A stretch of DNA of 63,962 nt, the filler included, from Asterionella formosa (Eukaryota), in NCBI GenBank assembly GCA_002256025.1. It is 27 parts of 27 records of this genome, joined end to end, with 100 filler letters (N's around TTAATTAATTAA, not from the genome) between each part and the next. Parts side by side here need not be neighbours in the genome. Positions count along the whole stretch, not along the records: positions 1,559 to 3,013 come from NKIB01002361.1; 26 more parts are not named here. The stretch is one strand, 5' to 3'. The notes beneath the pieces were generated by a model. That model saw only the letters and a list, made by a program, of their open reading frames with translations. It made no database searches and was not told the origin of the DNA. Positions within the stretch are counted from its first letter, which is position 1, and the number at the start of each line of letters is the position of its first letter. Position numbers and translations under genes: made by a program. Positions 1,559-63,758 of the stretch are shown here, one piece after another.

Positions 1559-1716
1559 TACATTTAGAAACTTTACAATCTTCTAGATATTAACCATACT
1601 GAAAACTAATGAACCATTTCAAAGCCACTGCTACCAAACAGGCATTGTTGGTTTTATGTGTACCAAGGTTCCTAAAGACATGCTGAAACATCCTTGTCCT
1701 CCATCAGCCATACGAC

Positions 1717-3013
1717 CTATTCAATATCAAACCCAGTGGAAGCCATAGGGACTGCCAACTTCAACTTCTCCTTCAAATCCTGTCGTGTCTCATACATTGG
1801 TAAATCAATTCGATTGAAACTAGTGCTACAGCAGTAGAAAGGGGAGAGAGAGGTGAGCAAAAGGTACACTCATTCAGCAAGGCAAGTGCAACAACAATAC
1901 ATGAGAGACTTACTGAGCTCGAGGATAAAGACAGACATCAACTCCTACTCCATGAATGGTAAATTTCCGAATATTCCCATCATTTCCTTGCAAACCTCCG
2001 AATCCTCGACTTGGAACACCACTGGTCCCTGTCACAAATTGCAACAATCGCGCCTTGGTTTCCCGATCAAATTCAGCAACAACCTCCCAAAACCAAATAC
2101 AAACTTGATGATCACCACCAACATGATCACATTCACCAGAATATTCTGTATGTTCTTTCCAATCTTCCAAGTCAATGTCAGGCAAACCACACATGAGTAG
2201 TTCCAATTCTTGAAAGTCGAAAATAGTCAAGAGTGGTTCTGGAATAACATCAAAGAATCCCAACAATAGTTCATTCAATTGTGGCTTGACTCGATCCAAC
2301 ATTCTGTATTTGAGACATGCTTCCAAATATTCTGGAAAGTTGTCATTGTCCACTTCAATTTTTGCACCATTTGGAATGAGTTCAATCTCTTCCTTGACTC
2401 CCATGATATCTTGAGTAGTGGTAAAGTCCAAGCACAGCATACTCAAATCTTCCCCACTCGTGGCCAAGGTCTGCAATTGCTTCAAATTGTTGTAATATTC
2501 GTCATCGACCATTGCCAAATCACCAAAAGTGACAGGCCAGCCCAAGATATGTTTGTAAATGTATCCAACCATGTGACCAGAAACAAGTTGTTGGTCAAAG
2601 AGTGCCTTGCCCATGACCCGACCCAAGAATCGATAATAAATCAAGTGATCTTCACAGCAATATTCTGTGCATGTATGCATAATAGTAAAAATGAAAAGAA
2701 TGAAAACATGTATGAGTGGAAAGTAAAATAAATATAATATATATATATATATATCTACAAATATCACATGATGTAAAAGACAAAGACACACCAAACAACA
2801 TTTCAAGCACATACCAGATGCTGGATTGACTTCCATACACATTTGATTGGCTGAACTACTTTGCCACAATCCCAAATTTGGATCAAATATTTCTTCAGTG
2901 ACAAGCTGAAACCATTCTCTCGCCAATCCACCAGCATCAACTCCCATTTCACTAACAAATTCGAATCTCCACAATTTATGTAAATCCTTACGTGACAATG
3001 ACATGATTGCATC
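1717..3013 (-). CDS. NEDD4-like HECT E3 ubiquitin ligase, 3' part (copy 1), catalytic Cys replaced by Ser
   Basis: HECT motifs GVDAGGLAREWF, YYRFLGRVMGKALF, ELELLMCG and ARLLQFVTGTS. GT-AG introns at 2665-2814 and 1826-1913. The spliced C-terminus reads YPRAHTSFNRIDLP...TGFDIE*, with TAG at 1717-1719. The 5' end is cut by the contig end. Confidence 0.93.
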
Positions 3014-3113: not shown

Positions 3114-4117
3114 TTTTTTTTCAGAACACACCATTTTGTCTGAAGAAGACCAAATGCCATTTCTATTCTTATCCTTAGCTGTGAAAGGAAAAAGTTAAAT
3201 GTATCCTGTGTTGGATCATCACGTTGTGAGCCAACAAAGGGAACAAGCATTACATCAGACAATGTGTAAGCTGCATCGCCGACCAGATAAAAACCTGTGT
3301 TGAATGCTGCAACTTGATCGAAAATGGAAGTTTTTTCAAAAGCTACTTGGTCACTGCATTTTCCCGGTGCAATTACACCAAAATAAATAAATCTTGAGTC
3401 AGCATCACAAACAGCCTGGACATTGATTCCATAAGTCATGTAGTGACCGGAAAAAAATGAACCAGGGTTGTTGCCACTTTCAACTATAGTCGGGCGGTTG
3501 ATGGTGGCAAGGAAGCCGTCAATAGCACCAACACATCCTCTCATCACGCCCTCTGAGCTTTTGCATTCAAAGCTGGAAGCCAATTTGATAAATTCTTCTT
3601 TTTCTTTTGGAAAAATAATTTCGAGTTCTTCACAGTTTAGTACAGCATCAATGAACAAATCACGACATCGATAAAGTGAAGCAATGCTACAACCGTAGGC
3701 ATGACGAATGTCGATGTAACTGCCACCAGCCAGCCATCGCAAACCAATGGCTACCACAATTTCGGGAATTATGGGCTCAGAAGTGCCACATTTGGAATAA
3801 TTCCCTGCAATCTGAATTTCCAGCATGGAGGTGAGTTTTTTGAATGCTCTGTGTGACATTCTGTATGTCTTCTCGAAAGCAATCTCGTGATTGAGTTTCT
3901 CGACATGTGATTGCCAGGAGATTCTTTCGTGGTGCCACTTGTGCCTTCGTTGTCGTCGTCGTTCAGATGACTGAAGCTGCCGTTTACAGCGTCGCCTTTG
4001 TCGTTTGGATGAGTGTTCTTTTTCCTCTGCTTCCTTAGTTAAATGACAGAGGAAGAAGAAATCAAGATCACTACTGTCATCGTCATTATCATCAAGTAAA
4101 TCAAATGGCGACGACAT
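3114..4117 (-). CDS. PIF/Harbinger DDE transposase (DDE_Tnp_4, HARBI1-like), 3'-truncated
   Basis: Motifs GCVGAIDG, NVQAVCDA, YLVGDAAY and FNFFLSQLRIRIEMAFGLL, plus an N-terminal HTH-like region (LRWLAGGSY.DI). Confidence 0.92.
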
Positions 4118-4668: not shown

Positions 4669-5830
4669 CCCTGCCTGTTGTCAACAACAATGCGTGAGCT
4701 GACAAGCCATACTAGCATTTAGGTACACAACAAGAACACACTCACCATTCAACTGTATTGCAGAGTTCTTTCATTTGAGTCGAGGATTCAATTAAAATTG
4801 CAGCAACCTATGCAGCTACAGAAACAATGAGAAGGAATGATTTGTTAGCAAGTAGTCATGTTACATTGAAACAACGACACGCAATTCCATCGTATCCACT
4901 TGCTTCACTTACCACAAATCAATGCAACTGATGCATAAGTCTGTAATAGTAACTTGTCAGTAAGCCAAATTCTTGAATAAGTAAGTTTCGGGTATCCAAT
5001 GTTGTTGAATAAAACTTACCGGTACATTTTTGTCATCTTAACTTTGAGAGAAGGTAAACGTTTTGTCAGCTTTGTTCCAACAGAAGTGAATAGGTCCAAC
5101 GAGCGACAAGAGCACTTACGCAATTTGGTTTTGTTTTACATTGGTGCTCCCCAACAAGCGAAACGAGCTGTTTAATCAACTGAGAAAAAAGGAAATGTGG
5201 CTGCGTTTAGTTAACAATTTGTTGTTGTCCTGCCTCCCAACGATTGTCATCCAAGTAGCTACCACATTGATGGCTTCATTACCTTAAACATTCTCCATCC
5301 TTCGAAGGCGCAATGTGTCGAAGTCACAATGTTTTTCGTTATGTATTGCAAAAATTTTCTTTTCTTGTCATGTGCTTTACTACGACGTATCTTTTCATGA
5401 AGCAGCAGGCATTGTTTGTTAACATGACAGAACGATTTGAAAAATATATTGGCCATGAATATAGTAATAAAATTTGTAAATATATATATGTATATAGCGT
5501 TATACATTTTATAAAATTCAAAGGCGCTCTCGATATGGAACATCTGATATGGTTGAGATGGCCATACTTGCATATACATAATTCGAAAATACTCAATGCA
5601 CTATATATCCATTGTTTTCCACGACTACGTGTACCGGTATTATCTCTGAAATTTGTTTGCATCGATATTTTCTACGTCCGTTGAAACTAATTATTTAGAC
5701 CGTTCAAGTGCCCCTTTTTTGGGCGGGAGCTCTTCATGTGTACCGGTACATCATATGACAATAACAATGTATCATAAATATATTGTTTTGGTAGCAAATT
5801 GTTTAAGCCCCTTTTATTTAAGTACTATAG
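4669..5830. repeat. Dispersed repeat family A (unclassified, probably a non-autonomous TE)
   Basis: About 4882-5700 is near-identical to 12432-13250. About 5070-5628 matches 52552-53118. 4669-4805 matches about 51837-51973 in reverse complement. Confidence 0.9.
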
Positions 5831-6378: not shown

Positions 6379-7674
6379 CTATTCAATATCAAACCCAGTG
6401 GAAGCCATAGGGACTGCCAACTTCAACTTCTCCTTCAAATCCTGTCGTGTCTCATACATTGGTAAATCAATTCGATTGAAACTAGTGCTGCAGCAGTAGA
6501 AAGGGGAGAGAGAGGTGAGCAAAAGGTACACTCATTCAGCAAGGCGAGTGCAACAACAATACATGAGAGACTTACTGAGCTCGAGGATAAAGACAAACAT
6601 CAACTCCTACTCCATGAATGGTAAATTTCCGAATATTCCCATCATTTCCTTGCAAACCTCCGAATCCTCGACTTGGAACACCACTGGTCCCTGTCACAAA
6701 TTGCAACAATCGCGCCTTGGTTTCCCGATCAAATTCACCAACAACCTCCCAAAACCAAATACAAACTTGATGATCACCACCAACATGATCACATTCACCA
6801 GAATATTCTGTATGTCTTTCCAATCTTCCAAGTCAATGTCAGGCAAACCACACATGAGTAGTTCCAATTCTTGAAAGTCGAAAATAGTCAAGAGTGGTTC
6901 TGGAATAACATCAAAGAATCCCAACAATAGTTCATTCAATTGTGGCTTGACTCGATCCAACATTCTGTATTTGAGACATGCTTCCAAATATTCTGGAAAG
7001 TTGTCATTGTCCACTTCAATTTTTGCACCATTTGGAATGAGTTCAATCTCTTCCTTGACTCCCATGATATCTTGAGTAGTGGTAAAGTCCAAGCACAGCA
7101 TACTCAAATCTTCCCCACTCGTGGCCAAGGTCTGCAATTGCTTCAAATTGTTGTAATATTCGTCATCGACCATTGCCAAATCACCAAAAGTGACAGGCCA
7201 GCCCAAGATATGTTTGTAAATATATCCAACCATGTGACCAGCAACAAGTTGTCGGTCAAAGAGTGCCTTGCCCATGACCCGACCCAAGAATCGATAATAA
7301 ATCAAGTGATCTTCACAGCAATATTCTGTGCATGTATGCATAATAGTAAAAATGAAAAGAATGAAAACAAGTATGAGTGGAAAGTAAAATAAATATAATA
7401 TATATATATATATATCTACAAATATCACATGATGTAAAAGACAAAGACACAGCAAACAACATTTCAAGCACATACCAGATGCTGGATTGACTTCCATACA
7501 CATTTGATTGGCTGAACTACTTTGCCACAATCCCAAATTTGGATCAAATATTTTTTCAGTGACAAGCTGAAACCATTCTCTCGCCAATCCACCAGCATCA
7601 ACTCCCATTTCACTAACAAATTCGAATCTCCACAATTTATGTAAATCCTTACGTGACAATGACATGATTGCATC
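6379..7674 (-). pseudogene. HECT E3 ligase copy 2 (allele or recent duplicate), frameshifted
   Basis: About 99% identical to 1559-3013, with the same contig boundaries. A 1-nt deletion near 6815 (gtatgtctttcc versus gtatgttctttcc) shifts the frame after DLEDWK. The same Ser codon lies at 6481-6483. Confidence 0.85.
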
Positions 7675-12431: not shown

Positions 12432-13345
12432 CAATTCCATCGTATCCTCTTGCTTCACTTACCACAAATCAATGCAACTGATGCATAAGTCTGTAATAGT
12501 AACTTGTCAGTAAATTCTTGAATAAGTAAGTTTCGGGTATCCAATGTTGTTGAATAAAACTTACCGGTACATTTTTGTCATCTTAACTTTGAGAGAAGGT
12601 AAACGTTTTGTCAGCTTTGTTCCAACAGAAGTGAATAGGTCCAACGAGCGACAAGAGCACTTACGCAATTTGGTTTTGTTTTACATTGGTGCTCCCCAAC
12701 AAGCGAAACGAGCTGTTTAATCAACTGAGAAAAAAGGAAATGTGGCTGCGTTTAGTTAACAATTTGTTGTTGTCCTGCCTCCCAACGATTGTCATCCAAG
12801 TAGCTACCACATTGATGGCTTCATTACCTTAAACATTCTCCATCCTTCGAATGCGCAATGTGTCGAAGTCACAATGTTTTTCGTTATGTATTGTGAAAAT
12901 TTTCTTTCTCTTAATGTGCTTTACTACGACGTATCTTTTCATGAAGCAGCAGGCATTGTTTGTTAACATGACAGAACGATTTCAAAAATATATATATGCC
13001 ATGAATATAGAAATAAAATTTGTAAATATATATATATATTAAGTGTTGTACATTTATAAAATTCAAACGCGCTCTTGACATGGAACATCTGATATGGTTG
13101 AGATGATCATACTCCCATATACATAATTCGAAAATACTCAATGCACTATATGTCCATTGTTTTCCACGACTACGTGTACCGGAATTGTTTCTGAAATTTT
13201 TTTGCATCGATATTTTCTACATCCGTTGAAACTAATTATTTAGACCGTTAAATAGCCGCCAGGGTTTTGGTAGCAAATTGTTTAAGCCCCTTTTTTGGTC
13301 GGGAGCTCTTCATGTGTACCGGTACATCATATGACAATAACAATA
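12432..13345 (+). repeat. Dispersed repeat family A, second copy
   Basis: Direct match to 4882-5830 with scattered SNPs and indels, and a local rearrangement near its 3' end. Confidence 0.9.
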
Positions 13346-36325: not shown

Positions 36326-36838
36326 TCCAGGAGGATAGTGACCCCGATTACTAATCGTTTCTGATGATTAGTGATTGGCCACAAAAGCAATGAAGTTAGG
36401 GTGATCTGTTCATCGTCATCAATCAAATGATCGCTTTGTTTTTCTTGGCCAACAAAATAAAATAATTCGTGTATCATCGGTATCATAAAAATATCCACGT
36501 TTACAGGTTGTGCTACCGGTACCCTGGTACTTGGTATCTGGGTATCATATTCTGGTATGGTACGTGGTACCTGGTACCTGCATGCCCACGACATCGTGAC
36601 GTCTGGCTGTCTTTCCGGTTTGCTACCCAGGTCGCAGAAGCATTTCGTACAAAGGCTGCTGTTCGCGGAAAGCCAGCAGGAATCATGAGAAGGAGTACAT
36701 AAGTACATACACAAGGCTTTAGAACCTCCTACCGGTACCGGGATCTATGCTATACATAGAGTATTTATTTTTTATGTGCACTTGCTATGCATTATCTATA
36801 TTATGTAACTTACGTGTACTACCACACGACAAAAGTGG

Positions 36839-37867
36839 TGTGTGTGTTGAGAGGGAGAAACGCTTGCAACGGATGCCAGCGGCAGCTACATTAACAAGGA
36901 ACTGAGATTCTAAAGTAGTATTTAACTAGCTGTAGAGGGACCAGTACTCACGGGAATTAAGCACTTACAGGAATCTTGGTAGGATATACGGAGTAACCGG
37001 TATATGGTACCAACACCCCCCTCAAGTGAGAAAATTCCCATGAGACGGGACAATAATATTGCGGAGGCGGAGAAAATGGGCATCATCTTTATGTTCTTTG
37101 GTGAACAGATCAGCAACATTGGTATCCCCTGGGAGGTGGGTGACAAAGATTTCGGAAAAACGGTGAGCGTCGTGCACAGCCATGTTGCGGATATTAATAT
37201 GCCGCATCTTTTTGTTAGCACAGTTGTGGGACCAGTCCACAGCACCTCGGTTGTCATTCCAAAGAGGGGTGGGGAGAGTTACATCAGGCATGTGGAGGTC
37301 ACTAAGGATATGGCGGATGAATTGGGTAACCTTGGTGCCCTCATCTGCAGATTTGATTTCAGATTCGCAGGTACTGCGGCTCACACGAGGTGCACGAATG
37401 ACATGCCAGGCAATGGGGCCACCTGTACGTGTACTGATGGAACCAAGAAGGGAGCAACACTCGGCAAGAGAGATGATGTCGGTGGGGTTGGGTTTGGAAG
37501 CATCTTGGGGGCCCCAGTTGGCATCGGTGTAAGTGGTGAGAGTGGGAGTGTCCTTGGGCCAGCCAAAGGTGGTGGAGAGGTATGAGGAAGCAAATTGCGA
37601 GGTAAAGGCAATGCCATGATCGGCAGAGCCAGCCAGGTATCGTAACACATACTTGGCACCTAAAAGGTGAGCAGGGGTGGCATAGGAGTTGTGCTGAGCC
37701 AGGAGAGTGAGGGCCACAGAGACATCAGGACGTGTGCTGACAGCCAGCCAATTGAGAGCCCCAATGAGTGACTGGTATTGTGTAATAATGGCCGCGCGAG
37801 CTTTGGGGGAAAGTTCAGCACCATCAGGCACAATGCGGTCATAGACCAGGCCAGAGCGATAAGGGGT
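36839..37867 (-). mobile_element. Ty1/Copia LTR retrotransposon 3' end (RT C-terminus, RNase H, PPT, 177-bp LTR), copy 1
   Basis: YQSLIGALNWL..TRPD, YTDANW, STCESE, NDNRGA, ADLFTK. A GAGGGGGG polypurine tract abuts LTR TGTTGG at 37015. Identity with copy 2 ends at 36839 (...CA). Confidence 0.95.
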
Positions 37868-40816: not shown

Positions 40817-41238
40817 TCCTGTTGGTTGGTGACTGGTTTGAACATTTTCTCTAGTCCATCCGTTGGTACGTTTGTTCCATGCCACTCACTCCACTTTACG
40901 TCACGTGTATTGACCACAGTATTTGTCTCGTGATTATACATGCGATACGTATCTTGAGAGTGGTCATCTGAGTATCCCAAAAAGACACACTTGATGGAAC
41001 GTGCATCTAATTTCTTGACACCTTCTCTTATAGTAACCCAACCAACACGTCCAAATTGCCTGTAGAGCTTGTAGGGCCTCCTTGTATTCGTTTCTCCATA
41101 GAACACATCATCAGGACTCTTCTTAGTCACTGAATTCACTGTACTGTTCGTCAATCTTGTCGCAGTATGTACCGCTTCTGCCCACAATAGCCCCTGATAT
41201 TCATCTGTAAACTTCGCACTTAGCATCATAGCGAGTGC
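40817..41238 (-). mobile_element. Second Copia family, integrase C-terminal/SH3-like fragment, interrupted by a nested insertion
   Basis: ALAMM...LWAEAVHTATRL.N, KCVFLGY, YRMYN, TRDVKW. Abuts the LTR end at 41239. Confidence 0.88.
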
Positions 41239-42267
41239 TGTGTGTGTTGAGAGGGAGAAACGCTTGCAACGGATGCCAGCGGCAGCTACATTAACAAGGA
41301 ACTGAGATTCTAAAGTAGTATTTAACTAGCTGTAGAGGGACCAGTACTCACGGGAATTAAGCACTTACAGGAATCTTGGTAGGATATACGGAGTAACCGG
41401 TATATGGTACCAACACCCCCCTCAAGTGAGAAAATTCCCATGAGACGGGACAATAATATTGCGGAGGCGGAGAAAATGGGCATCATCTTTATGTTCTTTG
41501 GTGAACAGATCAGCAACATTGGTATCCCCTGGGAGGTGGGTGACAAAGATTTCGGAAAAACGGTGAGCGTCGCGCACAGCCATGTTGCGGATATTAATAT
41601 GCCGCATCTTTTTGTTAGCACAGTTGTGGGACCAGTCCACAGCACCTCGGTTGTCATTCCAAAGAGGGGTGGGGAGAGTTACATCAGGCATGTGGAGGTC
41701 ACTAAGGATATGGCGGATGAATTGGGTAACCTTGGTGCCCTCATCTGCAGATTTGATTTCAGATTCGCAGGTACTGCGGCTCACACGAGGTTCACGAATG
41801 ACATGCCAGGCAATGGGGCCACCTGTACGTGTACTGATGGAACCAAGAAGGGAGCAACACTCGGCAAGAGAGATGATGTCGGTGGGGTTGGGTTTGGAAG
41901 CATCTTGGGGGCCCCAGTTGGCATCGGTGTAAGGGGTGAGAGTGGGAGTGTCCTTGGGCCAGCCAAAGGTGGTGGAGAGGTATGAGGAAGCAAATTGCGA
42001 GGTAAAGGCAATGCCATGATCGGCAGAGCCAGCCAGGTATCGTAACACATACTTGGCACCTAAAAGGTGAGCAGGGGTGGCATAGGAGTTGTGCTGAGCC
42101 AGGAGAGTGAGGGCCACAGAGACATCAGGACGTGTGCTGACAGCCAGCCAATTGAGAGCCCCAATGAGTGACTGGTATTGTGTAATAATGGCCGCGCGAG
42201 CTTTGGGGGAAAGTTCAGCACCATCAGGCACAATGCGGTCATAGACCAGGCCAGAGCGATAAGGGGT
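41239..42267 (-). mobile_element. Ty1/Copia 3' end, copy 2 (LTR 41239-41415)
   Basis: Identical to 36839-37867 except for 3 substitutions seen by eye; the flank is different. Confidence 0.95.
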
Positions 42268-47018: not shown

Positions 47019-48468
47019 TCAACATGTTTATAATCGACTTTGCTGCCTGTCTCAAGACCTTAAAGAAGCTCCTAAAACTCATGATAACTCATCCAGAAGA
47101 TCAAGAGGTTTCCGCCAAGGAAGATTTGAGGTTGATTGTCATTTTGCTTGATCAACAATGCGTGGCAACAAGTGTTTGAATGGAACAATGAAAAGAACAC
47201 AAAATAATTGATTTGCTTGGTTTTGACTTACTTCGAGAGTCAACAATCATTAAAAGATCAACTCAAGCACATCCTCAAGCATGAGTTCTACCATAAGCCG
47301 AAATCGACTTCGCATCGCTTGTTGAAGGCAATCGTGTTATGTCGAGAGAACGCGCATGCCTGGTGTCGATTTTCTAACACAAAATCGTAAATAAATAGTT
47401 GAAGTTGAAGACAATTCCATGACGCATCAAGAAAATAAGCGTGACTGGTGTCAATTTTAACAAAAGATCGTCTTCGCATTGCTAAATGCAGTCCTGTGAT
47501 GTATCAAGAATACAAACTCCATTTCAAGCGTAAATTTGTACATGATAATTTTATACTCAGTGGTGATGGCAGGGCACATGCATTTTAGTGCAGCCGGCCA
47601 CGCATGGGATATGAAACAACGGTCAAACATAAGATTCATGGAGTTAACATTACTAACACTACTAACCTTGTTCCTGTTCGGAATCCTGTGCCTGTTCCAC
47701 ATGCTCGTATGTTAAATACATGGAGTCATAATACTCGTCCATCCGGTTGGGGTACCGTGCCACGTGCCGATCCTACCGAGAATACATCTGCCCAGGAAAT
47801 TTCAGTGGTCACGAACCCTCCTGCTGGCCAGATAGTGACTTTTGTCCCTACTATACAACAGCAGATTGCTGATCGCCATTACAGAGGTATGTGCGATAAT
47901 AGCGATGCTATTTATAATGACTCGTTGAGTATATCTCACGTTAGTCATCACCTGAATAATATTGTTTATTTACAGGTTGAATACACTATGAATACCGCGG
48001 TTAATGTTACGCGGGATATATATAACTGCATTGATGGACATGATGTTCCATATACATATCAGGGCCCAATTCCGGTTTCCTGTTTTACTTCTAAGGATAT
48101 ATTAACATCAATTGTTTCCAGAATCCTCGTACTCAAGGTGGTCGAGCAGGTCACATGACTGGTCGTCATAATGGATATGGCCGTTCCAGTTTTGGTAGAC
48201 GAGGACATTTTAGTGGTCATGAACCCTCCTGTTGGTCAGTTAGTGGCCGATGTGCCTAATAAAAAACCAGCAGAATGCTGAACATATCGCCTTAACAGAA
48301 TTATGTGCGACAATAGCAACAATGCTATGATTTTAATAATATACATATATATATATATTTATGAGCGACAGCACATTGAATATGTCTTACGTCAATCATT
48401 ACCTGAATAACTTTTGTTATTTACAGGATAATTACAGGTTGGATATCACCGCTATTTTAACACGGGAT
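47019..48468 (+). repeat. Dispersed repeat family B, copy 1
   Basis: 47019-47680 matches about 62817-63480. 48203-48468 matches about 63623-63902. 48361-48468 matches about 58913-59021. Confidence 0.9.
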
Positions 48469-52551: not shown

Positions 52552-53118
52552 GTTTGTTCCAACAGAAGTGAATAGGTCCAACGAGCGACAAGAGCACTTA
52601 CGCAATTTGGTTTGGTTTTGTTTTACATTGGTGCTCCCCAACAAGCGAAACGAGCTGTTGAATCAACTGAGAAAAAAGGAAATGTGGCTGCGTTTAGTTA
52701 ACAATTTGTTGTTGTCCTGCCTGCCTCCCAACGATTGTCATCCAAGTACCACGCACATTGATGGCTTCATTACCTTAAACATTCTCCATCCTTCGAATGC
52801 GCAATGTGTCGAAGTCACAATGTTTTTCGTTATGTATTGCGTAAACTTTCTTTGCTGTCATGTGCTTTACTACGACGTATCTTTTCATGAAGCAGCAGGC
52901 ATTGATTGTTAACGTGACAGAACGATTTGAAAAATATATTGGCCATGAATATAGTAATAAAATTTGTAAATATATATATATATATAGCGTAATACATTTT
53001 ATAAAATTCAAAGGCGCTCTCGATATGGAACATCTGATATGGTTGAGATGATCATACTCGCATATACATAATTCGAAAATACTCAATGCACTATATGTCC
53101 ATTGTTTTCCACGACTAC
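52552..53118 (+). repeat. Dispersed repeat family A, third copy
   Basis: Matches 5070-5628 and 12617-13173. Confidence 0.9.
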
Positions 53119-62413: not shown

Positions 62414-62816
62414 NNNNNNNNNNNNNNNNNNNNNNNNNNNNNNNNNNNNNNNNNNNNTTAATTAATTAANNNNNNNNNNNNNNNNNNNNNNNNNNNNNNN
62501 NNNNNNNNNNNNNATGATCAATTGACGCTCAGGGGAAGCTTGTTTATTGATTTCAGTAAATCCTGTGATATGGCTAACACATATATCTTCAGTCCAGCAG
62601 ATTCCTTGCTTGTTCACCTACTGCTACAAAAGATGACTCATAGATATCGTCCTGTCTGACTGGATGAGCGTTGCAATACACTCAGATGCTCAGTCCCACC
62701 ATAACAGTCTCAACAAGAAAGTCATAGTGATGTGGCTGGAAGATTACCTTCTTCATGATATCTCTGAGAGTCAATAACAGTGGCTGGATGCCATGATATT
62801 ACTCAATAAAACATTT

Positions 62817-63758
62817 CAACATGTTTATAATCGACTTCGACTTTGCTGCCTGTCTCAAGACCTTAAAGAAGCTCCTAAAACTCATGATAACTCATCCAGA
62901 AGATCAAGAGGTTTCCGCCAAGGAAGATTTGAGGTTGATTGTCATTTTGCTTGATTGACAATGCGTGGCAACAAGTGTTTGAATGGAACAATGAAAAGAA
63001 CACAAAATAATTGATTCGCTTGGTTTTGGCTTACTTCGAGAGTCAACAATCATTCAATGATCAACTCAAGCACATCCTCAAGCATGAGTTCTACCATAAG
63101 CCGAAATCGACTTCGCATCGCTGAAGGCAGTCGTGTTATGTCGAGAGAACGCGCGTGCCTGGTGTCAATTTTCTAACACAAAATCGTAAATAAATAGTTG
63201 AAGTTGAAGACAATTCCATGACGTATCAAGAAAATAAGCGTGACTGGTGTCAATTTTAACAAAAGATCGTCTTCGCATTGCTAAATGCAGTCCTGTGATA
63301 TATCAAGAATACAAACACCATTTCAAGCGTAAATTTGTACATGATAATTTTATACTCAGGGGTGATGGCAGGGCACATGCATTTTAGTGCAGCCGGCCAC
63401 GCATGGGATATGAAACAACGGTCAAACATAAGGTTCATGGAGTTATCATTACTAACACTACTAACTCTGTTCCTGTTCCTATGGCATGGAACTTCGACAC
63501 GGAGCGAATTATCATACTAACACAGCTAACGCTATTCATGTTATTTGGGTTAACCCTATGATGATGTCTGGTTAGGGTACTGTGCCGAGGGCCATACCTG
63601 CCGACTTTTATGAATCTGCCCAGGAAATTTTAATGGTCATGAACCCTCCTGTTGGTCAGTTAGTGGCCGATGTGCCTAATAAAAAACCAGCAGAATGCTG
63701 AACATATCGCCTTAACAGAATTATGTGCGACAATAGCAACAATGCTATGATTTTAATA

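What the first reader, a model, noticed from the sequence alone, without database searches (positions are those of the whole stretch)
1717..1920. HECT ligase with catalytic Cys replaced by Ser in both copies
Seen: after removing intron 1826-1913 the last exon reads R-A-H-T-S-F-N-R-I-D-L-P, with codon AGT at 1819-1821, and copy 2 has the same codon at 6481-6483. Established: NEDD4-family HECTs have HTCFN, and that Cys forms the ubiquitin thioester. The rest of copy 1, including the -4 Phe (GFDIE*), is intact. Inference: this is a natural pseudo-ligase or ubiquitin trap (Cys-to-Ser mutants can form stable oxyesters), or a paralog that lost activity before the two copies diverged. The ORF track hides this because the exon lies beyond an intron.
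Basis: partly seen in the sequence, partly recalled or inferred. Interest (0 to 1): 0.7.

Follow-up and report, generated by a model that had tools for sequence, protein, structure and literature searches.

The report
Catalytically dead HECT ligase gene copies
A freshwater diatom carries transcribed copies of a conserved ubiquitin ligase gene whose essential catalytic cysteine is replaced by serine; some of these copies are broken in other ways too, so they look like young dying duplicates rather than a new kind of enzyme.

Summary
On the minus strand the last exon reads H-T-S-F-N-R-I-D-L-P, with AGT at 1821-1819 and 6483-6481. RNA contigs from two studies skip intron 1826-1913 exactly. One polyA RNA contig carries AGT without any difference.

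The window is an artificial chain of small unplaced contigs. The "two copies" are 1455- and 1454-base contigs, 99.2% identical, with the same end points. Copy 2 also lacks one base (frameshift).

All 98 other diatom homologs compared keep Cys. Near-identical Cys versions (TGT) exist in three lake metagenome contigs and, by their intron sequence, in one run that also holds the Ser type. Among 38 near-identical spliced proteins, 13 read HTSFN, 5 read HISFNRN* (Ser plus frameshift) and 20 read HTCFN.

Ser is the only departure at the 102 most conserved sites. The Ser lineage also has five changes never seen elsewhere, and separate frameshifts in different copies.

Best reading: a recently inactivated, still transcribed duplicate or allele lineage that is decaying. 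A retained dominant-negative or trap function is not excluded.

The parts
1559..3013 (-). Contig 'copy 1': 3' part of a HECT E3 gene (last 349 codons plus 3' UTR). It is bounded by artificial N/TTAATTAATTAA linkers.
   Evidence: Pfam HECT E 4.3e-71
2815..3013 (-). Exon (5' end cut by the contig end), HECT N-lobe start. It carries the lineage-specific R9H and G18S changes.
2665..2814 (-). Intron 1, 150 nt. It is in frame with no stop, so the ORF track reads through it.
   Evidence: skipped in RNA contigs of X17 and X15
1914..2664 (-). Exon 2, bulk of the HECT domain
1826..1913 (-). Intron 2, 88 nt, GT..AG
   Evidence: joint 1825->1914 in X17 and 1824->1914 in X15
1717..1825 (-). Last exon: (H)TSFNRIDLPMYETRQDLKEKLKLAVPMASTGFDIE, then stop
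   Evidence: X17 RNA contig identical over 1655-1825
1819..1821 (-). AGT = Ser at the position of the catalytic Cys
   Evidence: Cys in 98 of 98 other diatom homologs; TGT in L002-L004
6221..7674 (-). Contig 'copy 2': same stretch, 99.2% identical to copy 1, same end points
6481..6483 (-). AGT = Ser in copy 2
6814..6816 (-). Site of a 1-nt deletion (GAACAT -> GACAT) that frameshifts the HECT domain of copy 2
   Evidence: The same deletion makes up 25% of DNA depth in X2 and is absent from the RNA contigs. The same frameshifted ORF (P0121) was seen on 15 contigs.

Best explanation
The Ser codon is genuine. It marks one lineage (here 'W/S type') of a group of near-identical HECT E3 gene versions in a freshwater pennate diatom. 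The ancestral version keeps Cys (TGT) and matches other diatoms at all diagnostic sites.

The W/S lineage lost the catalytic nucleophile by a single T-to-A change, before its present variants diverged. A HECT domain without that Cys cannot form the ubiquitin thioester (established knowledge of HECT mechanism), so the product is ligase-dead.

The W/S versions are still transcribed and correctly spliced (shown). They appear to be under relaxed constraint and are picking up separate disabling lesions (inferred from several variants). That would make them young, transcribed, decaying duplicates or null alleles rather than a maintained pseudo-enzyme.

Still unresolved:
- whether the versions are paralogs, alleles or both;
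- how many copies exist.
For: 1. Cys-bearing sister. Three genomic metagenome contigs (L002, L003, L004; 93-96% identical over the whole stretch) read CAG|T ACT TGT TTC AAT. These are 3 of the 3 close loci that cover the codon. A loose end in DNA run X2 at 1840 equals the reverse complement of the Cys-type intron 2, so Cys-type DNA is also in a run that holds the Ser type.

2. Polarity. At 8 diagnostic blocks the Cys type agrees with Grammatophora (P0011) and the Ser type is derived. The W/S type has R9H, G18S, V287G, C316S and T340P, each seen in 0 of 98 other diatom homologs. L003, P0005 and P0007 have no such unique change.

3. Separate disabling lesions on the Ser lineage.
- Copy 2 has a 1-nt deletion. 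It accounts for 25% of X2 DNA depth but 0 of RNA depth in X17 and X15. The resulting ORF, P0121, was seen on 15 contigs.
- A 1-nt insertion two codons after the Ser codon gives HISFNRN* in 5 of 38 readable proteins and in the genomic ORF P0183.
- An N-terminal frameshift occurs in P0151-type gene models.

4. Ser is confined to this near-identical cluster: 5 of the 10 hits at 96% identity or more, and 0 of the other 110 listed.

5. Other family members are also broken. L004 has an in-frame stop. L005, L020 and L023 share a 4-nt insertion and a 12-nt duplication with a stop. L003 and L005 share a 5-nt insertion.
Against: 1. Apart from Cys316Ser the HECT domain of copy 1 is pristine. It shows 1 departure at 102 sites that are at least 95% conserved, and 4 at 148 sites that are at least 90% conserved.

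2. Pairwise dN/dS against the Cys type is 0.16-0.30, not 1. Most of that divergence may predate the loss.

3. The Ser type is well expressed. In polyA run X17 the only contig over the junction and last exon is the Ser type (depth 1509.5) and no Cys contig was laid.

4. Full-length spliced Ser proteins exist with almost no other departure. P0008 shows 3 departures at 261 conserved sites, one of them C878S. These contigs could be assembly chimeras.

5. Ser occurs on several backgrounds (GID-S-P, VVD-S-P, VVN-S-T). It has therefore persisted long enough to recombine, or has spread by gene conversion.

6. Some Cys-type genomic contigs are broken too, so lesions are not specific to the Ser lineage.
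Confidence: 0.55

Rival explanations
1. Retained non-catalytic HECT (pseudo-enzyme). The Ser version is kept by selection. It could act as a dominant-negative that binds E2~Ub or substrates through its intact N-lobe and N-terminal repeats, or it could form a slow, stable ubiquitin oxyester that acts as a trap.
For: - Only the nucleophile is changed among the 102 most conserved sites.
- It is correctly spliced and abundantly represented in RNA contigs.
- 13 of 38 readable near-identical spliced proteins are intact HTSFN forms.
- P0008 and P0155 are full-length with few other departures.
- The frameshifted variant is absent from RNA contigs while the intact Ser form is present.
- The local motif PRAHTSFNR.DLP is the same as in the NEDD4L HECT chain of PDB 3jw0. 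From recall, that Ser was engineered to capture the E2~Ub complex.
Against: - No conservation beyond one species-level cluster (0 of 98 other diatoms).
- Several Ser copies carry frameshifts.
- There are extra unique substitutions at conserved sites.
- Transcript contigs cannot be phased over long distances.
- dN/dS within the Ser lineage rests on 6 changes.
Confidence: 0.22
2. Segregating loss-of-function allele at a single locus. Ser and Cys are alleles in natural populations of a diploid, largely clonal diatom. Some clones are homozygous for Ser and so lack this ligase activity.
For: - Run X1, labelled as one organism, gave only 3 contigs. All are at least 99% alike, at a depth of about 8, form one haplotype with Ser, and show no Cys type.
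- X17 shows only Ser at the junction.
- Block-wise mosaic haplotypes (W or X exon 1 with S or C 3' end) are what recombination between alleles would give.
- Both forms occur in lake metatranscriptome proteins.
Against: - DNA run X2 shows variant fractions of about 2, 25, 60, 71 and 83% and up to 16 contigs over one position. That is more than two alleles, unless the sample is a mixture.
- Contigs show presence, not absence, so a missing Cys type in X1 or X17 is weak evidence.
- Several differently broken versions coexist.
Confidence: 0.15
3. Sequencing or assembly artefact: the true codon is TGT.
For: The contigs are small unplaced pieces of a fragmented assembly.
Against: AGT is seen in two window contigs, in a DNA contig from another study (X1), in an RNA contig (X17), and in 13 HTSFN and 5 HISFN spliced proteins from public assemblies.
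Confidence: 0.01

Closest known systems
NEDD4 / NEDD4L / Rsp5 HECT domains (PDB 3jw0, 3jvz, 5c7j, 4lcd)
   Same: They are the best solved-structure matches to the near-identical full-length relative P0155 (E 7.7e-89 to 2.3e-81 over the whole HECT domain). They share the C-lobe motif PRAHT-x-FNR-x-DLP and a Phe four residues from the C terminus.
   Different: Pfam finds no C2 or WW domain in full-length relatives. The N-terminal half instead has four repeats of a roughly 40-residue motif with no Pfam match. The nucleophile is Ser, not Cys.
Engineered ligase-dead HECT mutants (Cys to Ser/Ala), e.g. the NEDD4L HECT chain of PDB 3jw0
   Same: The deposited chain reads PRAHTSFNRLDLP at the same aligned position. 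This is the same local sequence as the diatom gene.
   Different: That the PDB Ser is engineered is my recollection of Kamadurai et al. 2009. Of the citing eLife paper PMC3738095 I saw only passages. The diatom Ser is natural and heritable.
Orthologous diatom HECT E3s (Grammatophora oceanica P0011, Cylindrotheca closterium P0035, Nitzschia inconspicua P0053, Thalassiosira oceanica P0071)
   Same: Identity is 82%, 73%, 71% and 66% over the 250-residue query. Where checked (P0011, P0035), Pfam finds the same HECT-only architecture.
   Different: All have HTCFN.
Catalytically inactive members of ubiquitin-system families (e.g. UEV E2 variants); recalled, not tested here
   Same: The fold and partner-binding surfaces are kept while the catalytic Cys is lost.
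   Different: UEVs are ancient and conserved across eukaryotes. This Ser form is confined to one species-level cluster and partly broken.

Membership tests
HECT domain (Pfam PF00632) | Significant match to the HECT profile over N-lobe and C-lobe | tested here: met
   E 4.3e-71 (profile positions 1-261) plus the last exon at E 1.2e-5 (positions 273-305). The full-length relative P0155 gives E 5.6e-85 over positions 1-305.
HECT domain (active E3 ligase) | Catalytic Cys about 35 residues from the C terminus, which forms the ubiquitin thioester | tested here: not met
   AGT (Ser) at 1821-1819 and 6483-6481. The position is Cys in 98 of 98 other diatom homologs.
HECT domain (active E3 ligase) | Phe at position -4 from the C terminus | tested here: met
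   The sequence ends ...STGFDIE*.
NEDD4 subfamily | N-terminal C2 domain and WW domains | tested here: not met
   Pfam finds only HECT in P0155, P0008, P0011 and P0035. The window contigs themselves lack the N-terminal part.
NEDD4 subfamily | HECT domain closest to NEDD4-type HECT domains | tested here: met
   The top 11 PDB matches are NEDD4L or NEDD4, followed by Rsp5.
Pseudogene | Disabling lesion (frameshift or stop) in the coding sequence | tested here: met
   Copy 2 has a 1-nt deletion. Copy 1 has none within the 349 codons on its contig, so this feature is met for copy 2 only.
Pseudogene | Neutral evolution (dN/dS near 1) since inactivation | tested here: inconclusive
   Copy 1 versus copy 2 shows 2 synonymous and 4 nonsynonymous changes, ratio 0.51. 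There are too few changes to decide.
Pseudo-enzyme (maintained inactive paralog) | The inactive form is conserved across species or under purifying selection | tested here: not met
   Ser occurs only within the cluster at 96% identity or more. It is in 0 of 98 other diatom homologs. Selection within the lineage could not be tested.

The most novel reading that the evidence does not exclude
An otherwise intact, full-length, well-expressed HECT E3 (like P0008 or P0155, whose only unusual departure at 261 conserved sites is Cys878Ser) is maintained in this diatom as a natural ligase-dead regulator. It would act as a dominant-negative or as a ubiquitin-oxyester trap. The Ser codon would have spread among family members by recombination or gene conversion, so it now sits on several haplotype backgrounds and dominates the transcripts of some strains.
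Probability: 0.15. Interest if true: 0.75.

Novelty: new member of a known kind. Interest (0 to 1): 0.35.

Why it matters
If the Ser form were shown to be maintained, it would be a natural counterpart of the Cys-to-Ser mutants that laboratories use to kill or trap HECT ligases. It would also be a rare case of a HECT pseudo-enzyme. My four literature searches found no natural Cys-to-Ser HECT.

As it stands, the locus is mainly a clean example of the first step of gene death. The nucleophile is lost while expression, splicing and the rest of the fold are still intact, in a gene family that is turning over fast in one freshwater diatom.

It is also a caution for annotation. Automated pipelines would call these copies HECT ligases.

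Tried and rejected
- Own-genome search: no genome is held for this window, so the assembly could not be searched for a TGT paralog. Public metagenome contigs were used instead.
- Earlier notes of this scan: none for this genome.
- Viral contigs: no match to the family. Prokaryote genome collection: an exact 40-mer and a protein-pattern scan both found nothing.
- Search with the 50-aa last-exon ORF: 10 hits. Only P0174 (spliced, Ser) and P0183 (genomic, Ser plus frameshift) belong to this species-level cluster. This was too few to count genomic Ser against Cys copies.
- Alternative acceptor restoring Cys: rejected, because ACT AGT lies directly before TTC AAT within the exon.
- Copy number from contig depth: in X2 the summed depth of the Ser type is about 65,000-200,000, against about 455 for pieces that look like the Cys type. 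Taken at face value this means a hundred-fold or greater amplification. Contig depths, an 'algae metagenome' label and possible amplification bias make this unreliable, so I make no copy-number claim.
- Absence of Cys-type contigs in X1 and X17: contigs show presence only, so this is not used as evidence of absence.
- X15 junction contig: it has the Cys-type letter at 1825 and one unlisted difference in 1750-1824. That difference may be TGT at 1821, but the output does not show it, so I do not count it.
- Phasing Ser with the 5' part of the gene from transcript contigs: rejected. Nearly all block combinations occur, as expected from chimeric assembly.
- Literature: four searches. I saw passages of PMC10506303, PMC3738095 and PMC13196369. 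None describes a natural Cys-to-Ser HECT or this diatom family. 'Not in print' rests only on these searches.

Full report
**What the window is.** The 63,962-base window is not one continuous piece of chromosome. A script that split it at runs of N found about 40 pieces. Most are 1,449-1,458 bases, one is 1,197 bases and one is 23.9 kb. They are joined by 44 N + TTAATTAATTAA + 44 N linkers. The two are 99.2% identical over 1,455 bases. They start and end at exactly the same sequence positions. Their closeness in the window says nothing about their place in the genome. No whole genome is held for this window.

**The observation.** The gene lies on the minus strand.
- Exon 1 runs from the contig end to 2815.
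- Intron 1 is 2814-2665. It is 150 nt, in frame and without a stop, which is why the ORF list reads through it.
- Exon 2 is 2664-1914.
- Intron 2 is 1913-1826. It is 88 nt, GT..AG, with a long pyrimidine tract.
- The last exon is 1825-1717.
- Across the junction the reading is CGA GCT CA|C ACT AGT TTC AAT CGA ATT GAT TTA CCA, that is R-A-H-T-S-F-N-R-I-D-L-P. AGT is at 1821-1819.
- Copy 2 has AGT at 6483-6481.
- The protein ends STGFDIE, so the Phe at -4 is present.
- Pfam HECT matches both parts (E 4.3e-71 and 1.2e-5).
- No other splice acceptor could restore Cys, because the Ser codon sits inside the exon directly before TTC AAT.

**Independent reads of the same letters (all four runs are Logan contigs, which show presence but not absence).**
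- PolyA RNA run X17 has a contig that covers 1655-1825 with no difference and then jumps to 1914. It therefore shows both the splice and the AGT codon in RNA.
- Lake metatranscriptome X15 has a contig that jumps 1824 to 1914 with one letter in place of 1825 (CAT, still His).
- Both RNA runs also skip intron 1.
- DNA run X1 comes from another study and is labelled as a single organism. Its 1,765-base contig covers 1750-3013, and all seven of its differences lie elsewhere, so it has AGT.
- No T>A at 1821 reached the 5% listing threshold in any run.
- The stretch was found in 20 of 24 listed runs from 12 studies, many labelled lake or freshwater metagenomes.
- The substitution is real.

**How unusual it is.** A search with the 250-residue exon 2 product among longer proteins gave 1,323 hits, of which 120 were listed.
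- Of the 120, 104 read HTCFN, 5 read HTSFN and 11 did not match my pattern.
- Of those 11, seven are genomic ORFs that stop at the intron. P0041 and P0091 do have the Cys. P0116 is truncated. P0109, from another diatom, reads HTHYN.
- All five HTSFN proteins are among the ten hits at 96-99% identity. The closest named ortholog is Grammatophora oceanica at 82%.
- I aligned 98 of the 110 more distant hits, dropping 12 that lacked a complete C-terminal tail. The position is Cys in 98 of 98.

**A Cys-bearing sister exists.**
- Among the ten closest hits, four read HTCFN.
- The members of five 90% clusters plus these ten give 63 proteins. Of these, 38 have a readable motif: 13 HTSFN, 5 HISFNRN* and 20 HTCFN.
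- A scan of metagenome contigs returned 24 loci, seven of them close. The three that cover the codon (L002, L003, L004) are genomic, with both introns present. All three read ...CTCCAG|T ACT TGT TTC AAT.
- Their intron 2 differs from the window's at 7-10 of 88 aligned sites plus two indels.
- A loose end reported for DNA run X2 at 1840 is the exact reverse complement of that Cys-type intron. Cys-type DNA is therefore also present in a run that holds the Ser type, at a share below the listing threshold.

**Which is derived.**
- Two sequence types recur. One has EEGGVR / IGI / EDM / V.V.N / Cys / Thr at the diagnostic blocks. It agrees with Grammatophora at these blocks, apart from Ile for the middle Val and Gly for Asn in V.V.N.
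- The other type, which includes both window contigs, has QDRRIH / VSV / KNL / G.I.D / Ser / Pro.
- Against 98 other diatoms the window type carries R9H, G18S, V287G, C316S and T340P, each seen in 0 of 98. Copy 2 also carries E38K. L003, P0005 and P0007 carry no such unique change.
- The Ser lineage is therefore the derived and faster-changing one.

**Signs of decay.**
- Copy 2 lacks one base at the equivalent of 2153/2154. The same deletion makes up 25% of DNA depth in X2 and none of the RNA depth in X17 or X15. The resulting ORF, P0121, was seen on 15 contigs from three sources.
- A different Ser variant has one extra base two codons after the Ser codon. It gives HISFNRN* in five spliced proteins and in the genomic ORF P0183.
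- Gene models such as P0151 end in another frameshift further upstream.
- Broken versions are not confined to the Ser lineage. L004 (Cys) has an in-frame stop. L005, L020 and L023 share a 4-base insertion and a 12-base duplication with a stop in the first N-terminal repeat. L003 and L005 share a 5-base ACAAG insertion.
- This looks like a family of very similar versions in rapid turnover.

**Signs against simple decay.**
- Apart from the nucleophile, the HECT domain of copy 1 is intact. There is one departure (C316S) at 102 sites that are at least 95% conserved, and four at 148 sites that are at least 90% conserved.
- Nei-Gojobori dN/dS against the Cys contigs is 0.16-0.30. For example, copy 1 versus L002 shows 11 synonymous and 13 nonsynonymous changes. 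Between the two Ser contigs the ratio is 0.51, from only 2 and 4 changes. The first figure may largely reflect divergence before the loss. The second is uninformative.
- In X17 the only contig over the junction is the Ser type, while about half of the exon 1 depth is of the ancestral-looking EDM type.
- Full-length spliced Ser proteins such as P0008 depart from 84 other diatoms at only 3 of 261 conserved sites. For that comparison I kept 84 of the 110 hits, by length and complete tail.
- Ser occurs on several local backgrounds (GID-S-P, VVD-S-P, VVN-S-T).
- These transcript contigs may be chimeric over distances longer than the assembler's word size, so I do not treat the long-range combinations as phased.

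**Mechanism.**
- *Shown:* the codon, the splice, the transcription, the existence of Cys-type sisters, and the extra lesions.
- *Established knowledge:* the HECT Cys receives ubiquitin from the E2 as a thioester, and replacing it abolishes ligase activity.
- *Recalled:* a Ser may at best form a slow, stable oxyester.
- *Inferred:* one T-to-A change killed the ligase in one lineage. Since then that lineage has been under relaxed constraint while remaining expressed.
- I put 0.55 on this reading. I put 0.22 on a maintained non-catalytic role, 0.15 on a single-locus null allele segregating in populations, and about 0.01 on artefact.
- Paralog versus allele and copy number stay open. X2 shows more than two variants, with fractions of about 2, 25, 60, 71 and 83% and up to 16 contigs over one position, at a very high summed depth. 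The sample is labelled a metagenome and contig depths are unreliable.

**Comparison with known families.**
- The HECT domain is closest to NEDD4L, NEDD4 and Rsp5 (E down to 7.7e-89).
- Full-length near-identical relatives have no C2 or WW domain in Pfam. Instead they carry four copies of an unassigned motif of about 40 residues.
- The best PDB chain, 3jw0_C, itself reads PRAHTSFNRLDLP. From recall, that Ser was engineered to capture the E2~ubiquitin complex.
- Four literature searches found no natural Cys-to-Ser HECT. I saw only listings, plus passages of three papers.

**Verdict.** The 'pseudo-ligase / trap' idea is unproven and currently less likely than early pseudogenisation. Interest is moderate to low (0.35).

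Noticed in passing
window 1-63962: The window is an artificial chain of about 40 unplaced contigs. Most are 1,449-1,458 bases, one is 1,197 bases and one is 23.9 kb (13985-37867). They are joined by N44 + TTAATTAATTAA + N44 linkers. Adjacency between pieces has no biological meaning.
   Followed up: yes
window 3140-4117 (-): The neighbouring contig encodes a DDE_Tnp_4 (Harbinger/PIF-like) transposase fragment, Pfam E 8e-21. The contig end cuts it off. It is unrelated to the HECT contig except through the artificial join.
   Followed up: partly
window 36834-37867 vs 41234-42267; 4882-5704 vs 12432-13249; 47019-47679 vs 62816-63478; 5071-5628 vs 52553-53118: Several other small contigs in the window are 94-99.6% identical to each other. 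The unplaced pieces are therefore enriched in repeats or alternative haplotypes.
   Followed up: no
P0155 residues about 160-420 (near-identical full-length relative; not on the window contigs): The N-terminal half has four repeats of a motif like VFRVTVPE..QPGQEFQIYAGGRIVRIRCP...RPGE.LQITVP, with no Pfam match. They are conserved in Grammatophora. This may be the substrate-binding module of this diatom HECT family.
   Followed up: no
run X2 laid on window 1559-3013: The summed contig depth of the Ser-type stretch is about 65,000-200,000, with 1,174 contigs laid. Pieces that look like the Cys type have depths of about 447-465. This could reflect massive amplification of the Ser-type sequence, a mixed sample or amplification bias. 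It remains unexplained.
   Followed up: partly
L005 about 1650-1700, L020, L023; L003 and L005 near the ACAAG repeat: Three metagenome contigs share a 4-base insertion and a 12-base duplication carrying a stop in the first N-terminal repeat. Two contigs share a 5-base ACAAG repeat expansion. These are fixed pseudogene lineages within the same family.
   Followed up: partly
P0109 (another diatom, 64% identical): This protein reads YPRSHTHYNRIDLP, so it has His instead of the catalytic Cys and Tyr instead of Phe. It may be a second, independent natural loss of the HECT nucleophile in diatoms.
   Followed up: no
P0155 residues 1-108: Some transcripts extend upstream of the likely start (MFSGFIKRKK...) with an in-frame MKVWFQLFLGDA... 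segment. P0008 and Grammatophora lack it. It may be a variant 5' end or an upstream ORF fused by an indel.
   Followed up: no
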